Source: an uncultured Bacteroidales bacterium (GTDB lineage: Bacteria; Bacteroidota; Bacteroidia; Bacteroidales; UBA1402). From it: DNA of 15,217 nt. The notes beneath the pieces were generated by a model, which had not been told where the DNA came from, did no database searches, and was given only the letters and a program-made list of their open reading frames with translations. The stretch's first letter is position 1. Each line of letters opens with the position of its first letter. Made by a program: the position numbers and the translations under genes. Positions 1,761-15,186 of the stretch are shown piece by piece. Where the stretch lies: the NCBI GenBank assembly GCA_964472175.1, contig CAYYJF010000034.1, positions 4,503-19,719 of the forward strand, written 5' to 3'.

Positions 1761-1836
1761 GGTCTGATAGCTCAATGGTTAGAGCAGGCGCTTTATAAGC
1801 GTCAGGTTATGGGTTCAACCCCCATTCGGACCACCA
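1761..1836 (+). tRNA. tRNA-Ile, anticodon UAU (reads AUA), 3' CCA encoded
   Basis: Cloverleaf folded by hand. The acceptor stem GGTCTGA/TCGGACC has 7 bp with one G-U pair. The D-arm is GCTC..GAGC. The anticodon stem is GGCGC/GCGTC with loop TTTATAA, giving anticodon TAT at 1794-1796. The variable loop is 5 nt. The T-arm is ATGGG-TTCAACC-CCCAT. The discriminator is A followed by CCA. Confidence 0.8.
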
Positions 1837-7335: not shown

Positions 7336-7812
7336 TCAACTCTCAATATTATGACTCTCAATATTATGAAATAGTTTACCATTTATTTCAGAATCAAATA
7401 GTAAATTTGCCGATGGCGTATATAATGAGAGATCATTGCATAGGACCAATCCTACCAATTGCATTCCCTTGGCATCAACCGCCATTTTAATTCGGTTGAA
7501 TGTTTTCCCGCTATCAATTGTGTCATCAACGAATACAACTCGAAGTGGGTGGTCTATCCCGTTTGCGAGCTTTTCCGGTATCTCGACGCTGAATGCAGAA
7601 TGTGTCCTATCAGACTTTTTTCTGACGTACACGATTGGGATTTTGAGCTTCATTGATAGGACCATAGCATTGGCTATTCCGCTGATTCCCGTGCAAATCA
7701 AGGCATCATACTCACCCGCCTTGTCTTTGAGTAATGTCTTTGCATTTTTCAACAAATGCCCATCCTGAAAAGGAGTGCCAGATAATAGTGCTTCCAGATA
7801 TTGAACCGCCAT
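7336..7812 (-). CDS. type I phosphoribosyltransferase (Apt/Hpt/OPRT-like) family protein
   Basis: The PRPP-binding loop VVFVDDTIDSGKT is present (compare VLIVEDIIDSGNT in HGPRT). The upstream element YDALICTGISGIANAMVLSMKLKIPIVYVRKK matches the base-side loop of Apt/OPRT. The protein is 158 aa. Confidence 0.8.
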   Translation of the reverse strand: MAVQYLEALLSGTPFQDGHLLKNAKTLLKDKAGEYDALICTGISGIANAMVLSMKLKIPIVYVRKKSDRTHSAFSVEIPEKLANGIDHPLRVVFVDDTIDSGKTFNRIKMAVDAKGMQLVGLVLCNDLSLYTPSANLLFDSEINGKLFHNIESHNIES

Positions 7813-7932: not shown

Positions 7933-9048
7933 TTACTTGGCGCTAGTAGCAACCACTGCCTGCGTAGCCTGGGAGTTGTCAGTTGGGGACCCAACCACCC
8001 CGTTCAGGAACATATTCAGCCCAGCCGAGCTACCAACAATCGTAACGGGGAGTTTGCCGTCCCAACGCTTATTAAGCTCAAGTTGGTTATTCAGCGACTT
8101 GTCAATCGCGTACATCGGATTCTTAGAAGCCTTTTCGAGCGCATCATTGACGAGCGAAATGCCCTTTGCTTCGGCTTCTCGTTTGGACAAGATGGCATCG
8201 GCTTCACCCTGAGCAATCAATCGGGCATTCTTTGCCTGCTGAGTGGCCAAATCCTCGGACTTCTTATTAATATCCTTAACAGCATCAAGTGCCGCCTTCG
8301 CAGTTGCCTTTTCCTGTTCGGCAATAAACACCTTATCAATGGACTCTTGAATGCTCTTATTCTCATACGTGATACCACCGAATTGACCGAGGGTTTGAAT
8401 AGTAATACCCTTCTGCGCATAGAACGGGACAACCTTATTGCGAACAGCGTCCATCATCTCGTCCTTTTTAGCACGGAGGTCATCAAGCTTAAACTGAGTG
8501 GAATAAGACGCCATGACCTCAGCAATGCTATTACGAACCTCGTTCTTCAATACATTCTCAAGAGATTTATCACGATACATATAAAGGAACTTGGCAGCAT
8601 CTTCCTCCTTAATATATGCAGTCATGACAACACCAACGGAGAACCCGATAGAATCCTTAGACTCAACCCAAACGGCATCGGAATCGTTCGGAGTGTCGGC
8701 GAGCAACTTTACATTAACAGGAGAGCGGTCAACTTTGATAACGCGATTTACTTTCTGCCATTCGCCGGTCTGGGTCCAATCAAATCGGCCCTTATTGATC
8801 CAAACATACTCTTCTTGAATCTTGCGAACTGCGACCTTGACCGACGGAGAGTTATAATATTCTTCCGAGTCAAACTTGACTTGAGCGTTCTTGTTCTCAC
8901 CGATGAGGGGAACAACGAACATAGTTTCCGTACTGTCGGCTTCTGCGAACGTAACCGGCTTAACCGGACGGATGCAGCCGGAGGTGAACAGAGACATGCC
9001 AAACAGCATGACCGCAAGAATCATAGAGAAGAACTTAGTATATTTCAT
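7933..9048 (-). CDS. SPFH/band-7 (stomatin/prohibitin/HflK-like) domain lipoprotein
   Basis: The N-terminal signal peptide has a lipobox-like ...LFTSGC. There is a central SPFH-type region. The Ala/Glu/Lys-rich coiled-coil tail (EQEKATAKAALDA, AQGEADAILSKREAEAKG) is typical of the family. 371 aa. Confidence 0.85.
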   Translation of the reverse strand: MKYTKFFSMILAVMLFGMSLFTSGCIRPVKPVTFAEADSTETMFVVPLIGENKNAQVKFDSEEYYNSPSVKVAVRKIQEEYVWINKGRFDWTQTGEWQKVNRVIKVDRSPVNVKLLADTPNDSDAVWVESKDSIGFSVGVVMTAYIKEEDAAKFLYMYRDKSLENVLKNEVRNSIAEVMASYSTQFKLDDLRAKKDEMMDAVRNKVVPFYAQKGITIQTLGQFGGITYENKSIQESIDKVFIAEQEKATAKAALDAVKDINKKSEDLATQQAKNARLIAQGEADAILSKREAEAKGISLVNDALEKASKNPMYAIDKSLNNQLELNKRWDGKLPVTIVGSSAGLNMFLNGVVGSPTDNSQATQAVVATSAK

Positions 9049-12275: not shown

Positions 12276-12315
12276 ACAAAAAAGCGGAGAATCTTTCATC
12301 TCCGCTTTTTGATTT
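12276..12315. terminator. bidirectional rho-independent terminator
   Basis: The stem GCGGAGA / TCTCCGC (12284-12290 / 12299-12305) has an 8-nt loop. An A-run lies 5' and a T-run 3'. It directly follows the stop of the 12319-12453 ORF on the minus strand. Confidence 0.65.
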
Positions 12316-12318
12316 TTG

Positions 12319-12453
12319 TTAAGGATTGTTAGCGTCAACGACCATGGCAAGTTGACCACAAGCCGCCTGAGCTTGAATCTCTGCTTGAGTCGCTACGGCG
12401 ACGGCATACGAAAATCCTGCTTGCTCCAAACTGTTAATAATATTTTGGTTCAT
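12319..12453 (-). CDS. RlmN/Cfr C-terminal fragment (44 aa) carrying the conserved AACGQLA cysteine motif
   Basis: This ORF is not in the supplied track because it is below the size cut-off. The ATG at 12453 is preceded by AGGAGG with ~11-nt spacing. The product MNQNIINSLEQAGFSYAVAVATQAEIQAQAACGQLAMVVDANNP aligns to the E. coli RlmN tail ...[27 protein letters not shown] as recalled from memory. It lies in the same frame as the radical SAM ORF, 7 codons after its TAA. Confidence 0.6.
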   Translation of the reverse strand: MNQNIINSLEQAGFSYAVAVATQAEIQAQAACGQLAMVVDANNP

Positions 12454-12474
12454 ATAATAAAATTCCTCCTTTCG

Positions 12475-13380
12475 TTAAATTAAATTTTTCCCCTCAATGA
12501 TTCCATTCAATCCGTTGTTATCCGATATAACATTCCGATTGAGCGGAGAAAGCTTGATGAAGAAATACTTCGGATCGAAATATTTCTTGAGCAATTCAAT
12601 ATCAAAATCATTTTCATCAAACAATGTAAGATTGATTGTGGTGAGAAGATTGCTTTTGGTTCTGACTTGACCAAGCTCCTCAATTGTCATCTTCTTAGAA
12701 ATCGGAATCAATTGATCACGAGTCGCTTCCTTGAGAGAATGCAGTGAAAGTTGGAGAGTGATGTTATCTTTAATCCAACTAAAATCAGCACCTTTAATTC
12801 CAATTGTGCTTACAAAGAGATGGATGTTCTTGAATCTGGCCGTTAAGATTTCACATGCCTTTTTAACATTTTCTTGGTTGAGACCCCAATCGCCCATACG
12901 AGTCATATTAACCTTGAACTCTTTTGAATCTTCTGGATTCAGTTCTGGGTGTTTGGATAGAATGAAATCAACTTGTTCGACAATTTCTTGTGCGGTGAGA
13001 TTTCTGGTTCGCTTCAATTTTCCTGTCGCGCAAAATTTGCAGCCGATTGGGCATCCGCTTGCAACAGAAATCCCTATTAGGAATCTCTCCGTTCTGTCGC
13101 CCAATTCATAATTTATTAGAAAATTTTGATGGCATCCTATGGCATCTTTGGTTGAGATTGGAAGAAACGTATCAGTTACTTCAACCGGATATCCATCATT
13201 TGTATGAAGAAGATACACCGCTCCATTCGCAAAATGTTTGGATTTAATTTGATGCATAAATGAAAGTGACTGCTCCACATGCTCCAAGTAGACCTGCGAT
13301 ATCTTTGTCACCAAATAACCCGCATAGAACAGAACCAATTGCAAAAATTCCGCAAATAATCCATTTAAATTTTTCTTCAT
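12475..13380 (-). CDS. radical SAM enzyme, RlmN/Cfr family (RNA adenine C2/C8 methyltransferase-like), C-terminally truncated by an in-frame TAA
   Basis: The CxxxCxxC motif is GCPIGCKFCATG. The flanking GISVASGCPIGCKFCATGKLKRTRNLTAQEIVEQV corresponds to RlmN [36 protein letters not shown]. Further matches are MTRMGDWGLN, FVSTIGIK and LQLSLHSL...IPISKKMTIEEL, which correspond to RlmN MMGMGEPLLN, TLSTSGVV and LAISLHAP...VPINKKYNIETF. The ORF starts with an ATGA overlap on paralogue B. Confidence 0.85.
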   Translation of the reverse strand: MKKNLNGLFAEFLQLVLFYAGYLVTKISQVYLEHVEQSLSFMHQIKSKHFANGAVYLLHTNDGYPVEVTDTFLPISTKDAIGCHQNFLINYELGDRTERFLIGISVASGCPIGCKFCATGKLKRTRNLTAQEIVEQVDFILSKHPELNPEDSKEFKVNMTRMGDWGLNQENVKKACEILTARFKNIHLFVSTIGIKGADFSWIKDNITLQLSLHSLKEATRDQLIPISKKMTIEELGQVRTKSNLLTTINLTLFDENDFDIELLKKYFDPKYFFIKLSPLNRNVISDNNGLNGIIEGKNLI

Positions 13381-13736
13381 TCATGTTTATTTTTATTTTT
13401 TTCTTCAATTTTATTTTTTAAATGGGGATGACGCGCGATGACATAATCATCGCTCAATTCCATTAAAGTTGTTCGACGCGTATCCAATGTCGAAGTGTGT
13501 GTATCAGTGGGACAGTTATTTTCTGCCTGAAATACAATATACGGCAAATCGATTGCCTTAACGGTTAAAACATCTCCATACCAAGACCTATCGTGTGTTT
13601 TTGTGGTAACAACGGTTAGCCCACCGAAGCCCTCGTCACTTACATGTTCTTTTGTGTATGGGGCGTGGTTGTGGACCGTTACAAACATTCCAACTTCAAG
13701 TTCTCCCGGTGAAAGTATTTTTGAGTTTGCTGACAT
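13377..13736 (-). CDS. hypothetical protein, paralogue family 2 (copy B)
   Basis: 119 aa. Homologous blocks to 10388-10777 are listed under that feature. The ATG lies 9 nt after a terminator hairpin. Confidence 0.65.
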   Translation of the reverse strand: MSANSKILSPGELEVGMFVTVHNHAPYTKEHVSDEGFGGLTVVTTKTHDRSWYGDVLTVKAIDLPYIVFQAENNCPTDTHTSTLDTRRTTLMELSDDYVIARHPHLKNKIEEKNKNKHE

Positions 13737-13745
13737 AATTAAAAA

Positions 13746-13778
13746 GCTCGTTGGTGAGAAAGTATCTCACCAACGAGC
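13746..13778 (-). terminator. rho-independent terminator after the NAMPT gene
   Basis: Perfect 13-bp inverted repeat GCTCGTTGGTGAG / CTCACCAACGAGC with loop AAAGTAT. On the minus strand it is followed by TTTTTAATT. Confidence 0.6.
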
Positions 13779-13791
13779 ACAGAGGTCAATG

Positions 13792-15186
13792 TTATTGTGT
13801 GGCGTTCTTCCGAATTTCGTCGAACGAATATTTCTTTACCAGTTCTCCGCAGTTGAATACCTCAACCAAGACATCCTCACCCTCGTCTTCAAGACGACGG
13901 GTTTCATACCCAGTTTCGGTTTTAACTAGCTTCAATCGACCCTTCTTCGACTTCTTTCCGCCATCAATCGGGTCTTTAAAAATATCATTCCATTTACCAT
14001 CTCGGTATTGAGCGGAGCATTTGAAGGCAAATCGAAGATCGTCTCGACAAACTCGTTGCAATAGATTAGATCCGATTCCGAAGCAAGAGATATTCTCAGT
14101 TGCCCAACCATTAATGGTAAGAGCCCCAAGAATATTCTTAACTCCTTGAATATCAACACCGTCTCCCCATAGCAATTTTAATTTTGGATTGATTACCTTG
14201 TATCCTTTGCTATTAATAGTCCCGCCAAACTTGTTCCAAAGAATGTTGCACAATTTAAGAAGTACCTCCTCTGGGTCGCCGGAATCTGGGCGGATAACCA
14301 ATACACCATCACGCGCAAGAATTTGTTCCTTGTACTGCTCACCGCAAATCTTCTCGGCGAAGTCGTAAATGTTGTAGGTATCCCCCACAAGGGACAGAAT
14401 TCCGGTAGGATATTTTGTAAGGAGATCGCCAACAACTTTCGCTTCACCTTCTCGACCCAACGCTGACATTATTTGATGCTCGCTGGCCGGCACACTGAAC
14501 CCAAGATTGTCCAAATTTGCATCGTAATACTCACAGGCTCCCTCCAATGCAATAATCGTATCAGTTCCCTTGAAATTTACAAGATGTGCCATACCCCCAA
14601 GAGTGGCTTGCTCTGGCGTGGTGACACTTCTGAATCCAAAATCGTGAATAAAAAAATCAAGAAGGAAATTGTCGGAAGTCTTCTCCAAGAAGTGTTTAAC
14701 GGATAATTTTGCATATCGACCCTGAGTAGCAACGGTACTACCATACCACATATAATTGGTCAAAACAGTTTCAAGATAACCAGTGAGCCAACGGAATTTG
14801 CTTCCGCCCAGATTATGAATGGTCATCAATACATTGGATGTTCCAACCGTCAACCCTTCGGGTACAGCTCGGATTACTACTGGAAGTTTACCGTTGTAGT
14901 CGGTTAGAATATCTTCCCACCCCTGTCGATTGAATGAATTATCGTTTCCAAAATGTTTCTTAGCCAAAAGAGCTGCCCGCTCAATCTTTTCACGGGTAAC
15001 AACTTGACCTACCAAGTGTCGCATAATTCCAACTTGAAGACCGAAGAAAGTTACAAAATCCCACTTCCCACCAGCTCGCGCCTCAAAGTAAGAGTATGTA
15101 GTTTCCGTTCTCTCTGGGAACATGTTCCAATGGGCACCAAGCTTATAGCTATCGGTCGTGATGATAATATTATCGATGTTTTTCAT
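13792..15186 (-). CDS. nadV: nicotinamide phosphoribosyltransferase (NAMPT / NadV-like; type II PRTase)
   Basis: 464 aa with hallmark NAMPT blocks: IITTDSYKLGAHW, FKGTDTIIALEGA, VIRPDSGDPEEV and LLWGDGVDIQGV. The length and domain order match phage and bacterial NadV/NAMPT. It cannot be distinguished by eye from the NAMPT-like Namat of the NARP1 pathway. Confidence 0.9.
   Translation of the reverse strand: MKNIDNIIITTDSYKLGAHWNMFPERTETTYSYFEARAGGKWDFVTFFGLQVGIMRHLVGQVVTREKIERAALLAKKHFGNDNSFNRQGWEDILTDYNGKLPVVIRAVPEGLTVGTSNVLMTIHNLGGSKFRWLTGYLETVLTNYMWYGSTVATQGRYAKLSVKHFLEKTSDNFLLDFFIHDFGFRSVTTPEQATLGGMAHLVNFKGTDTIIALEGACEYYDANLDNLGFSVPASEHQIMSALGREGEAKVVGDLLTKYPTGILSLVGDTYNIYDFAEKICGEQYKEQILARDGVLVIRPDSGDPEEVLLKLCNILWNKFGGTINSKGYKVINPKLKLLWGDGVDIQGVKNILGALTINGWATENISCFGIGSNLLQRVCRDDLRFAFKCSAQYRDGKWNDIFKDPIDGGKKSKKGRLKLVKTETGYETRRLEDEGEDVLVEVFNCGELVKKYSFDEIRKNATQ

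What the first reader, a model, noticed from the sequence alone, without database searches (positions are those of the whole stretch)
12319..13380. RlmN/Cfr-family radical SAM enzyme split by a single in-frame TAA, with the methyl-carrying cysteine motif on a separate SD-equipped mini-ORF
Seen directly in the sequence:
- The 301-aa radical SAM ORF ends ...GKNLI-TAA. After 7 in-frame codons (RKEEFYY) there is an ATG that opens a 44-aa ORF.
- That ORF contains AACGQLA, the motif that in E. coli RlmN surrounds Cys355, the residue that carries the methyl group.
- The 7-codon gap contains AGGAGG, which is the only strong Shine-Dalgarno in this region.
Conservation of the small piece argues against a decaying pseudogene. 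The alternatives are a two-polypeptide enzyme, programmed stop-codon readthrough, or an assembly error.
A second point depends on an alignment recalled from memory. The residue aligned with RlmN Cys118, the cysteine that resolves the covalent enzyme-RNA intermediate, is Gly/Ile here (LIGISVASGC versus [11 protein letters not shown]). If that holds, the phage enzyme could crosslink to its RNA substrate or perform different chemistry.
A phage-borne RlmN beside a phage tRNA would suggest tRNA (m2A37) or rRNA (A2503) modification, or RNA sabotage, as a host-takeover or anti-defence function.
Basis: partly seen in the sequence, partly recalled or inferred. Interest (0 to 1): 0.8.

Follow-up and report, generated by a model that had tools for sequence, protein, structure and literature searches.

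The report
Two-gene phage RlmN-like radical SAM enzyme
This is not a broken gene: thousands of phages encode an RlmN/Cfr-like radical SAM enzyme as a 260-aa catalytic protein plus a separate ~40-aa mini-protein carrying the key cysteine, and the family lacks the second cysteine that normally finishes the reaction, so it must work differently from its known relatives.

Summary
On the minus strand, a radical SAM ORF ends GKNLI-TAA. Seven in-frame codons containing AGGAGG follow, then a 44-aa ORF with AACGQLA. The TAA is not an error, a fresh nonsense mutation or a readthrough site. About 70 related loci from cultured phages, IMG/VR contigs and MAGs carry the same two genes, and the small gene lies in any of the three frames behind TAA, TAG or TGA. 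It sits 2-21 nt downstream, more than 1 kb downstream, or upstream of the large gene. In two proteins it is fused to the N-terminus of the large one. The small ORF is under purifying selection and usually has its own Shine-Dalgarno.

The large protein probably starts at ATG 13257, giving 260 aa rather than 301. Its model matches only RlmN/Cfr structures. The small protein aligns with RlmN 329-362, so its Cys32 corresponds to C355. The C118 position is an invariant Gly, whereas unsplit phage relatives keep both cysteines.

My best reading is a two-subunit class-A-like radical SAM enzyme with the methyl-carrier cysteine supplied in trans and a non-canonical final step. The substrate is unknown. 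I found no publication describing it, so I rate it a new variant of a known kind.

The parts
12475..13257 (-). Large (catalytic) subunit gene, 260 aa plus the TAA stop. The mechanical ORF runs up to ATG 13380 (301 aa), but the likely start is ATG 13257.
   Evidence: ORF listed. Pfam Radical_SAM and NCBIfam TIGR00048 RlmN score 77 bits against a cutoff of 290. Homologues are 259-264 aa and start at the equivalent Met. The AF2 model has pLDDT 92.4, and its only Foldseek PDB hits below 1e-3 are RlmN and Cfr structures.
13030..13053 (-). CX3CX2C motif (Cys69, Cys73 and Cys76 in 260-aa numbering) that binds the [4Fe-4S] cluster and SAM.
   Evidence: Read from the sequence. These are the only three invariant cysteines in 120 homologues.
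13072..13074 (-). Gly62 codon (GGG), the position equivalent to the resolving Cys118 of E. coli RlmN.
   Evidence: Alignment to PDB RlmN and to E. coli RlmN. Gly is invariant in 120 homologues and in 41 of 41 further loci where the motif could be read.
12475..12477 (-). TAA stop codon of the large gene.
   Evidence: The C-terminus ..G.I...NL[IV] is the same across the family and in independent assemblies.
12454..12474 (-). 21-nt intergenic spacer containing the Shine-Dalgarno AGGAGG (12465-12470), 8 nt upstream of the small gene's ATG.
   Evidence: Predicted anti-SD duplex is -11.6 kcal/mol here, against -5.6 for the large gene.
12319..12453 (-). Small subunit gene, 44 aa plus stop: MNQNIINSLEQAGFSYAVAVATQAEIQAQAACGQLAMVVDANNP. 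It is the homologue of the RlmN C-terminal helix, strand and Cys355 loop.
   Evidence: hhalign places it on RlmN 329-362. It is present in about 70 related loci. There are at least 2830 stand-alone relatives of 40-68 aa. Differences fall mainly on third codon positions.
12358..12360 (-). Cys32 codon (TGT) of the small protein, aligned with the RlmN methyl-carrier Cys355.
   Evidence: Alignments. Invariant in 24 aligned small proteins, together with A30, A31 and G33.
12279..12310 (.). G+C-rich hairpin (GCGGAGA...TCTCCGC) flanked by A and T runs, immediately after the small gene. It is a likely bidirectional intrinsic terminator that ends the transcription unit.
   Evidence: The scan reports it on the + strand. 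On the minus strand the same stem is followed by TTTTTTGTT (sequence).
13746..13778 (-). Strong terminator-like hairpin (14 pairs) between the NAMPT gene and the 119-aa ORF. It marks the probable upstream boundary of the transcription unit 13736..12319.

Best explanation
This is a conserved two-gene phage module that encodes a heteromeric relative of the class A radical SAM methylases RlmN and Cfr. The 260-aa large protein (13257 to 12475) is the partial TIM-barrel core that binds the [4Fe-4S] cluster and SAM. The 44-aa small protein (12453 to 12319) is translated independently from its own Shine-Dalgarno and ATG.

The small protein supplies in trans what RlmN carries at its own C-terminus. 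That is an amphipathic helix and a beta-strand that dock on the core, followed by the mobile loop whose cysteine (Cys32, equivalent to RlmN Cys355) reaches the SAM site.

By analogy with RlmN and Cfr, Cys32 is methylated by one SAM. A second SAM is cleaved to the 5'-deoxyadenosyl radical, which abstracts a hydrogen atom from the S-methyl group. The resulting S-CH2 radical adds to an sp2 carbon of the substrate, most plausibly an adenine in RNA or in a nucleotide.

The resolving cysteine (RlmN Cys118) is an invariant glycine here, so the last step cannot be the canonical one. Either another group resolves the adduct, or the small protein stays attached. In about a third of related loci a second radical SAM gene lies between or next to the two genes, so in those phages the pair is part of a longer pathway.

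What is shown: homology, the fold of the large subunit, the independence and conservation of the two genes, the absence of Cys118, and the association with a second radical SAM gene. What is inferred: physical assembly of the two proteins, the methyl-carrier chemistry, and the substrate.
For: 1. Homology. RlmN/Cfr NCBIfam models are the best hits. The PDB sequence hits are RlmN and Cfr. The AF2 model (pLDDT 92.4) matches only 6fz6, 3rf9 and 9p0p below E = 1e-3. The small-protein profile aligns to RlmN 329-362 with its Cys on C355.

2. Two genes is the family norm. All of the best 120 of 1740 homologues are 259-270 aa, apart from three outliers of 243, 281 and 301 aa, and the family ends at the same motif. 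There are at least 2830 stand-alone small proteins of 40-68 aa. The pair is present in Kehishuvirus 'tikkala', Moorella phage MTATph1, Pectobacterium Wc4, Yersinia P778 and Vibrio D479. It is also present in all but 2 of 27 IMG/VR loci and in 41 of 42 genome/MAG loci.

3. The small gene is independent. It occupies frames 0, +1 or +2, follows all three stop codons, and lies 2-21 nt away, 1.1-3 kb away, or upstream. It has its own SD wherever the host uses one.

4. Purifying selection. Among 23 distinct nucleotide versions of the core, differences by codon position are 2060, 1084 and 4789.

5. Rosetta-stone fusions. P0244 is small module plus large subunit, fused at the N-terminus. P0259 is small module plus large subunit plus a second radical SAM domain. 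These argue that the parts act together.

6. Cys118. Gly is invariant at that position. Among 94 full-length representatives, Gly at -7 with a fused Cys occurs 0 times in 27, against 36 of 41 for Cys at -7 (Fisher p = 3e-14). Unsplit phage relatives (ANB28, Arash) keep both cysteines.

7. The stop is reproducible in independent assemblies.

8. Terminators bracket the unit.

9. The roles of C355 and C118 in RlmN are taken from PMC9692996.
Against: - There is no direct evidence that the two proteins bind each other.
- The score against the RlmN equivalog model is far below its cutoff (77-82 bits against 290).
- The N-terminal RNA-binding domain of RlmN is missing, so an RNA substrate is not assured.
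- Without Cys118 the canonical cycle is predicted to stall at a covalent adduct (PMC9692996). The methylase reading therefore needs an unidentified substitute.
- Other unsplit relatives also lack Cys118 (18 representatives), so the split is not required for losing it.
- The tandemly duplicated small unit in Vibrio phage D479 and the co-located extra radical SAM and methyltransferase genes would also fit a reading in which the small protein is a substrate.
Confidence: 0.75

Rival explanations
1. Sacrificial or crosslinking reading. Because Cys118 is missing, the S-CH2 radical adduct is never resolved. The ~40-aa protein then ends up covalently attached through a thioether-methylene bridge to its nucleic-acid or nucleotide target. 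Splitting the enzyme would keep the catalytic subunit reusable while the mini-protein is consumed stoichiometrically.
For: - Gly is invariant at the Cys118 position.
- RlmN C118 mutants trap exactly this covalent protein-RNA intermediate (PMC9692996).
- Every representative with Gly at -7 lacks a C-terminally fused Cys loop.
- The small unit is tandemly duplicated in Vibrio phage D479 and partly duplicated in P0121. That is easier to reconcile with a consumable module than with a fixed structural element.
Against: - In the natural fusions P0244 and P0259 the small module is tethered to the enzyme, which would make the whole enzyme single-turnover.
- The small gene's SD is not significantly stronger than the large gene's (p = 0.19), so there is no sign of excess production.
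- Unsplit relatives without Cys118 exist, so some other way of resolving the adduct probably exists in this superfamily.
Confidence: 0.12
2. Substrate (RiPP-like) reading. The mini-protein is not a subunit but the substrate. The large radical SAM enzyme, plus the second radical SAM and the methyltransferase where present, modifies its cysteine or neighbouring residues to produce a modified peptide.
For: - The layout is a small peptide gene next to one or two radical SAM genes and sometimes a class-I-methyltransferase-like gene, in 25 of about 78 loci.
- Tandem copies of the unit occur in D479.
Against: - The whole peptide is conserved, not only a leader. Its invariant AACG motif and the preceding helix and strand are those of RlmN's own catalytic C-terminus.
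- No RRE or SPASM domain was found in the large protein; Pfam reports only Radical_SAM.
- No protease or exporter recurs next to the pair.
- The module is fused to the enzyme in P0244 and P0259.
Confidence: 0.08
3. Artefact or decay. The TAA is a sequencing or assembly error, or a recent nonsense mutation in a once-continuous gene. Alternatively, the two ORFs are joined by programmed readthrough, recoding or ribosomal bypassing.
For: In this window the two ORFs are in the same frame and only 7 codons apart. Some phage lineages are known to reassign stop codons (my own knowledge).
Against: - Cluster members from independent assemblies are no longer than 301 aa and those read in full end at GKNLI, and the exact 44-aa protein is recorded on 24 contigs.
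- Relatives use TAA, TAG and TGA, and place the small gene in all three frames. In Kehishuvirus the gap is 2 nt and the frame is +2.
- The two genes can be separated by 1-3 kb of other genes, or be in reversed order.
- No C-terminally fused member was found among the family's representatives.
Confidence: 0.02

Closest known systems
E. coli RlmN (23S rRNA m2A2503 / tRNA m2A37 methyl synthase; PDB 3RF9/3RFA, 5HR6/5HR7)
   Same: - CX3CX2C radical SAM core and the N-terminal beta-extension.
- Best sequence and fold match.
- The C-terminal helix, strand and AACGQL loop with the methyl-carrier Cys is conserved residue for residue.
   Different: - The C-terminal element is a separate 44-aa protein.
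- Cys118 is Gly.
- The N-terminal helical RNA-binding domain of roughly 60-90 residues is absent.
- The score is far below the equivalog cutoff (77-82 bits against 290).
- The substrate is unknown.
Cfr (23S rRNA m8A2503 methyl synthase; PDB 9P0P)
   Same: Same class A architecture. Second-best family hits.
   Different: Cfr has both Cys105 and Cys338 on one chain. The phage enzyme has only the Cys338/355 equivalent, and has it in trans.
Unsplit phage RlmN-like proteins (Stenotrophomonas phages ANB28 and BUCTxx99, Salmonella phage Arash)
   Same: Phage-borne and lacking the RlmN N-terminal domain. About 30-34% identical to the window protein.
   Different: A single chain of 309-319 aa with Cys at -7 and a fused GGGCGQLW C-terminus. 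These have the canonical two-cysteine layout. In the Stenotrophomonas phages the gene sits inside a tRNA gene cluster.
RlmN C118A/S mutants (engineered trapping variants)
   Same: No cysteine at position 118, with Cys355 retained. The top PDB sequence hits for the window protein are in fact the C118A chains 4PL1 and 5HR6.
   Different: Those are laboratory mutants that stall as covalent enzyme-RNA adducts (PMC9692996). Here the loss is natural, invariant and combined with the split.
Phage 'genes in pieces' such as T4 topoisomerase gp39/gp60 and Aeromonas phage Aeh1 NrdA split by mobE (from my own knowledge, not checked here)
   Same: An enzyme encoded as two polypeptides in phage genomes rich in homing endonucleases. 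In relatives the space between the two genes holds a GIY-YIG endonuclease, and one large subunit carries an intein.
   Different: The second piece here is only about 40 aa and carries a catalytic residue. The split is ancient and spans phages of very different hosts. The spacer often holds functionally suggestive genes (a second radical SAM, a methyltransferase) rather than only selfish elements.

Membership tests
Class A radical SAM methylases (RlmN/Cfr) | CX3CX2C motif binding the [4Fe-4S] cluster and SAM | tested here: met
   C69-X3-C73-X2-C76 (window 13030-13053). Pfam Radical_SAM hit. Invariant in 120 homologues.
Class A radical SAM methylases (RlmN/Cfr) | Sequence membership: score at or above the curated cutoff of an RlmN or Cfr equivalog model | tested here: not met
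   TIGR00048 scores 77.4 bits, or 81.9 bits with the two pieces joined, against a cutoff of 290. The Cfr models score 54-64 bits against cutoffs of 468-550. The protein is a distant relative, not an orthologue.
Class A radical SAM methylases (RlmN/Cfr) | RlmN/Cfr-type fold (partial barrel plus N-terminal beta-extension) | tested here: met
   AF2 model with pLDDT 92.4. Foldseek PDB hits are 6fz6 at 3e-12, 3rf9 at 3e-9 and 9p0p at 1e-7. The next hit is at 2e-3 or weaker.
Class A radical SAM methylases (RlmN/Cfr) | Conserved methyl-carrier cysteine (RlmN C355 / Cfr C338) in a C-terminal loop | tested here: met
   Cys32 of the 44-aa protein aligns with C355 and is invariant. It lies on a separate polypeptide, which is not the case in any characterised member.
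Class A radical SAM methylases (RlmN/Cfr) | Second conserved (resolving) cysteine (RlmN C118 / Cfr C105); the class is defined by two conserved cysteines (PMC9692996) | tested here: not met
   Gly62 occupies the aligned position. Gly is invariant in the family. No other conserved cysteine exists; a Cys at -4 occurs in only about 50% of members, and the window has Val there.
Class A radical SAM methylases (RlmN/Cfr) | N-terminal helical RNA-binding domain | tested here: not met
   The profile alignment begins at about position 102 of the RlmN model. In the MAFFT alignment RlmN residues ~25-67 face a gap and its N-terminal ~100 residues correspond to only ~50 in the phage protein. The model begins directly with a three-stranded sheet.
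Class A radical SAM methylases (RlmN/Cfr) | Catalyses C2 or C8 methylation of adenosine in rRNA or tRNA | not testable with these tools
   This requires biochemistry or nucleoside mass spectrometry.
Two-polypeptide (split) enzyme | Both pieces conserved as separate, independently initiated ORFs across diverged relatives | tested here: met
Two-polypeptide (split) enzyme | The two products associate physically | tested here: inconclusive
   The only evidence is indirect: the Rosetta-stone fusions P0244 and P0259 and homology to a contiguous RlmN element.
Programmed stop-codon readthrough or recoding | The downstream ORF is consistently in frame with a specific stop codon | tested here: not met
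   Frames 0, +1 and +2 all occur, as do TAA, TAG and TGA. Separations reach 3 kb, and the order can be reversed.
RiPP precursor plus radical SAM maturase | Leader/core organisation with a variable core, and an RRE or SPASM domain in the maturase | tested here: not met
   The peptide is conserved along its whole length, with 10 invariant positions. Pfam finds only the Radical_SAM domain in the large protein.

The most novel reading that the evidence does not exclude
The ~40-aa protein is a dissociable one-carbon carrier protein, in effect a free-standing, mobile version of the RlmN Cys355 loop. It would either shuttle a methyl or methylene unit between the RlmN-like enzyme and the second radical SAM enzyme often encoded between the two genes. 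Or, because the resolving cysteine is missing, it would end up covalently grafted onto its nucleic-acid or nucleotide target, making this a natural peptide-nucleobase conjugating system used by phages during infection.
Probability: 0.2. Interest if true: 0.9.

Novelty: new variant of a known kind. Interest (0 to 1): 0.66.

Why it matters
Class A radical SAM methylases are defined by two cysteines on one chain: a methyl carrier and a resolver. This large, mainly phage-borne family breaks both rules at once. The carrier cysteine sits on a separate ~40-aa protein, and the resolver is an invariant glycine.

That makes a natural test case for how, or whether, the covalent enzyme-substrate intermediate is resolved without Cys118. 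It also raises the question of whether a methyl-carrying cysteine loop can act as a diffusible carrier.

The family is present in cultured phages of Bacteroides, Moorella, Pectobacterium, Yersinia and Vibrio, so genetics and biochemistry are feasible. Finding the substrate (host or phage RNA, DNA or a nucleotide) could reveal a new phage strategy for takeover, self-protection or anti-defence.

There is also a practical point. The small gene is easily missed, or the pair is easily misread as a pseudogene, and the automatic label 'RlmN' over-interprets it.

Tried and rejected
- **Complex model.** A single-sequence AF2 run on the large subunit was useless (pLDDT 39). Both jobs are now spent, so the natural fusion P0244 could not be modelled.
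- **Source of the window.** The look-up of encoding contigs found no record for P0001. blastn of the window against phage genomes found nothing close: 65% identity to Kehishuvirus over the gene, and tRNA-only hits elsewhere.
- **Defence and phage libraries.** PADLOC gave no hit for either protein. PHROGs gave only an unannotated family.
- **Stoichiometry from SD strength.** The idea that the small gene has a systematically stronger SD, and is therefore made in excess, is not supported (means -6.8 against -5.4 kcal/mol, Wilcoxon p = 0.19).
- **SPFH/prohibitin fusion.** The BUCTxx99 'prohibitin family protein' is simply a misannotated unsplit RlmN-like protein. SPFH genes lie nearby in the window and in Kehishuvirus, but they are not a conserved neighbour.
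- **A substitute for Cys118.** A Cys at -4 is present in only about half of the family and is absent from the window.
- **Charge as a clue to the substrate.** The large subunit has pI about 7.7 and the small one about 4.3, which is not informative.
- **P0416.** This 578-aa member of the small-protein cluster is an ABC transporter, so it is a clustering artefact.
- **Ribosomal bypassing** of the T4 gene 60 kind was considered and rejected for the same comparative reasons as readthrough.
- **Literature.** Seven full-text searches found no description of a split or phage-type RlmN. This is absence of evidence in the held library only.
Full report
**1. What is in the window**

On the minus strand, a mechanical ORF at 12475..13380 (301 aa) ends ...IEGKNLI-TAA. 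Seven in-frame codons follow (CGA AAG GAG GAA TTT TAT TAT, RKEEFYY) and contain AGGAGG at 12465-12470. ATG 12453 then opens a 44-aa ORF, MNQNIINSLEQAGFSYAVAVATQAEIQAQAACGQLAMVVDANNP, which ends at 12319.

The first 41 codons of the 301-aa ORF are probably not translated as part of this protein.
- Homologues are 259-264 aa and begin at the Met equivalent to ATG 13257 (MHQIKSKHFANG...).
- Members of the same 90% cluster are called at 260, 287 or 301 aa.
- A 54-aa ORF with hydrophobic stretches (13244..13408) overlaps the extension.

A 14-bp terminator-like hairpin (13746-13778) lies upstream of the preceding 119-aa ORF. A GC-rich hairpin flanked by T-runs (12279-12310) lies immediately after the small ORF. 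The two genes therefore sit at the end of a short transcription unit (sequence).

**2. What the two ORFs are**

The large protein matches Pfam Radical_SAM. Its best NCBIfam hits are the RlmN and Cfr models, but far below their cutoffs (TIGR00048 77 bits against 290). When the two pieces are joined, the RlmN alignment extends to profile position 342 of 355.

phmmer against PDB sequences finds only RlmN and Cfr chains. It aligns 'erfliGisvasgCpigCkfC' with '[20 protein letters not shown]', so the residue opposite RlmN Cys118 is Gly62.

With a 47-sequence alignment, AlphaFold2 gives a confident model (pLDDT 92.4). Its only Foldseek PDB matches below 1e-3 are the RlmN-like enzyme 6fz6, E. coli RlmN 3rf9 and Cfr 9p0p.

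I fetched E. coli RlmN from NC_000913 and aligned it with the joined phage pairs.
- The split falls between RlmN ...YGRSSNSRI and DRFSKVLMSYGF.
- The small protein corresponds to the last helix, the last strand and the AACGQL loop.
- Its Cys32 lies on Cys355.
- hhalign of a 24-sequence small-protein profile against RlmN aligns residues 329-362 with E = 3.7e-4.
- The RlmN N-terminal helical domain is absent.

**3. The split is the normal state of a large family**

The nearest cultured relatives have the same two genes.
- **Kehishuvirus 'tikkala'** (Crassvirales, 59% identity): a 262-aa gene, a 2-nt gap, and a 43-aa gene in a different frame.
- **Moorella phage MTATph1** (43% identity): a 15-nt gap, in frame.
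- **Pectobacterium phage Wc4 and Yersinia phage P778** (Wc4 filed under Ounavirinae; ~33-36% identity): the small unit lies one gene further downstream.
- **Vibrio phage D479**: the small unit is present as two tandem copies within one ORF.

The wider searches agree.
- A protein search gave 1740 homologues. The best 120 are 259-270 aa, apart from three outliers of 243, 281 and 301 aa (the last being the window's own over-extended call), and the family ends ..G.I...NL[IV].
- A profile of the small protein found at least 2830 hits, and the best 120 are all stand-alone proteins of 40-68 aa.
- All but 2 of 27 IMG/VR loci, and 41 of 42 loci from genome or MAG contigs, carry the small gene.
- The small gene follows TAA, TAG or TGA and starts in frame 0, +1 or +2. 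It lies 2-21 nt downstream, 1.1-3 kb downstream, or upstream of the large gene (L044, L077).
- Among 23 distinct nucleotide versions of its 29-codon core, differences by codon position are 2060, 1084 and 4789. Ten residues are invariant: L9, G13, A19, A21, T22, E25, A30, A31, C32 and G33.
- SD-like sequences precede the small gene wherever the large gene also has one. Neither gene has one in the Bacteroidota-type loci. The difference in strength is not significant.
- The window's own stop is reproducible. The 90% cluster has 17 members from four sources, none of the listed ones longer than 301 aa and those read in full ending at GKNLI, and the exact 44-aa protein is recorded on 24 contigs.

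Assembly error, a recent nonsense mutation, readthrough, recoding and bypassing are therefore excluded. That the two ORFs are in frame in this window is a one-in-three coincidence.

**4. The missing cysteine**

In 120 large subunits, the only invariant cysteines are the three cluster ligands. The -7 position is invariant Gly. A Cys at -4 occurs in about half of them, but not in the window. All 41 additional loci where the motif could be read have Gly at -7.

More distant unsplit phage homologues (Stenotrophomonas ANB28, Salmonella Arash) keep Cys at -7 and a fused GGGCGQLW tail. Bacteroides phage Versailles is unsplit, with Thr at -7.

An exhaustive profile search found 6152 hits. Among the best 150, the 94 full-length representatives fall as follows:

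| Residue at -7 | Fused C-terminal Cys motif | No fused Cys motif |
|---|---|---|
| Cys | 36 | 5 |
| Gly | 0 | 27 |
| Other | 18 | 8 |

- The Gly-versus-Cys contrast gives Fisher p = 3e-14.
- Of the 27 Gly representatives, 13 belong to this split family.
- The other 14 belong to a second family that has the helix and strand but no Cys loop at all. The one member whose context I looked up is cellular.

Loss of Cys118 is thus coupled to loss of the cis Cys loop in this lineage. Loss of Cys118 alone also occurs elsewhere in the superfamily.

According to the review PMC9692996, class A enzymes are defined by two conserved cysteines. C355 carries the methyl group, and the methylene radical derived from it adds to the adenine. 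C118 is indispensable for resolving the covalent protein-RNA intermediate, and C118A traps that intermediate.

**5. Clues to partners**

Two representatives are natural fusions.
- **P0244** (315 aa) has the small module at the N-terminus of the large subunit, which is a circular permutation relative to RlmN.
- **P0259** (695 aa) is small module + large subunit (Asp at -7) + a second radical SAM domain.

In 25 of about 78 loci, a second radical SAM gene lies between or beside the pair.
- Eighteen loci have a ~250-aa MoaA/viperin-like enzyme plus a ~150-aa class-I-methyltransferase-like protein.
- Seven loci have a ~270-298-aa radical SAM enzyme, preceded where I examined it by an ~83-112-aa protein with a Gly-rich tail ending in Cys.

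The window has no second CX3CX2C protein. The only other recurrent neighbours are NAD-salvage genes. NAMPT is present in 9 loci including the window, and an NMNAT-like gene in 7.

**6. Interpretation**

The best-supported reading is a two-subunit, class-A-like radical SAM enzyme. Its methyl-carrier cysteine loop is supplied in trans by a dedicated mini-protein, and its final chemical step differs from that of RlmN and Cfr.

- Shown: homology, fold, gene independence and conservation, absence of Cys118, and linkage to a second radical SAM enzyme.
- Inferred: assembly of the two proteins, S-methylation of Cys32, radical addition, and the substrate.

Two rival readings cannot be excluded with these tools: the sacrificial or crosslinking reading and the RiPP-like substrate reading. 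The N-terminal fusions argue against a freely consumed peptide. The conservation of RlmN's own catalytic motif argues against a mere substrate.

**7. Novelty**

JGI pipelines already label both pieces 'RlmN'. However, seven full-text literature searches found no description of a split RlmN/Cfr relative, of a trans-acting Cys355 module, or of the phage family. I rate it a new variant of a known kind. It is widespread, present in cultured phages and directly testable.

Noticed in passing
L028 2759-4561 (IMGVR_UViG_3300014205_000240); also P0242: The large subunit carries an intein with a LAGLIDADG endonuclease, inserted exactly at the third cysteine of the CX3CX2C motif (..CPVGCKF|C-intein-HN|CATGKL..).
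   Followed up: partly
L004 4946-6162; L007 4776-5977; L024 4752-5905; L011 5744-6864; L065 3784-5004: Between the large and small genes lies an ~83-112-aa protein with a Gly-rich tail ending in Cys (for example ..DPCGYSGGGRSPC), followed by a second radical SAM enzyme of ~270-298 aa. Only generic radical SAM and Fer4_12 hits were found, so the function is unknown.
   Followed up: partly
L037 3786-4999, L048 3799-4949, L059 3774-4950 and 15 other loci; L021 6112-7749: An alternative cassette lies between the two genes in 17 of these loci (in L021 it lies further along the same interval): a ~250-aa MoaA/viperin-like radical SAM enzyme (CNM...CYFC) plus a ~150-aa class-I-methyltransferase-like protein (DFGSGYNP...VVHHV).
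   Followed up: partly
L032 3300-3581 (Vibrio phage D479); P0121: The small unit is tandemly duplicated within one ORF, giving two complete helix-strand-AACGQM units. P0121 has a partial duplication of the Cys loop.
   Followed up: partly
P0244 (315 aa) and P0259 (695 aa): These are natural fusions with the small module at the N-terminus of the large subunit (a circular permutation). In P0259 a second radical SAM domain follows at the C-terminus, and Asp occupies the C118-equivalent position.
   Followed up: partly
window 13244-13408 (-): A 54-aa ORF with hydrophobic, membrane-like stretches (..WIICGIFAIGSVLCGLFG..AGLLGACGAVTFIY..) overlaps the 5' extension of the 301-aa ORF. This supports the downstream start at 13257. 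It was not found as a conserved neighbour.
   Followed up: partly
window 13792-15186 (-), 7336-7812 (-), 7933-9048 (-): The window encodes a nicotinamide phosphoribosyltransferase (NAMPT), a phosphoribosyltransferase-domain protein and an SPFH/Band-7 protein. NAMPT recurs near the pair in 9 loci, and an NMNAT-like gene in 7. This may be a shared auxiliary-gene region rather than a functional link.
   Followed up: partly
window 1761-1836 (+): A tRNA-Ile gene with anticodon TAT (reads AUA). It is the only tRNA in the window and lies 10.5 kb from the finding.
   Followed up: no
L083 1402-2361 (Stenotrophomonas phage BUCTxx99); also Xanthomonas phage JGB6 hit H25: The BUCTxx99 CDS annotated 'prohibitin family protein' is a 319-aa CDS matching the same RlmN-like region as its relative ANB28 and lies inside a tRNA gene cluster, so the product name looks wrong. 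The JGB6 hit carries the same label but was not examined.
   Followed up: yes
L021 8138-8248: This small ORF has the Cys loop deleted (..AEISAGAA--SIITEE) and lies 3.3 kb from its large gene. It is possibly a decaying copy.
   Followed up: no
P0311, P0316 and 12 other representatives; L085 2132-2971: A second Gly(-7) family (IGVSLSSGC..C.YC, 258-287 aa) keeps the C-terminal helix and strand but has no Cys loop at all. The one member whose context was looked up, P0311, lies between pyruvate kinase and greA in a cellular contig. A further unsplit group has Ile, Asn or Val at -7 with a fused GSNCGQ motif. These are uncharacterised RlmN relatives that also break the two-cysteine rule.
   Followed up: partly
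P0305, P0326, P0317, P0378: More distant RlmN-like proteins are fused to other domains. P0305 (NUDIX), P0326 (HD/dNTPase-like) and P0378 (beta-lactamase-like) have the canonical Cys at -7. P0317 (isochorismatase) has Met there. The fusions hint at nucleotide rather than RNA substrates in parts of the superfamily.
   Followed up: no
L011 4847-5689 and 7946-8671: A GIY-YIG/NUMOD3 homing endonuclease lies between the large and small genes, and an HNH endonuclease lies right after the small gene. The interval between the two genes looks like an insertion hot spot.
   Followed up: partly
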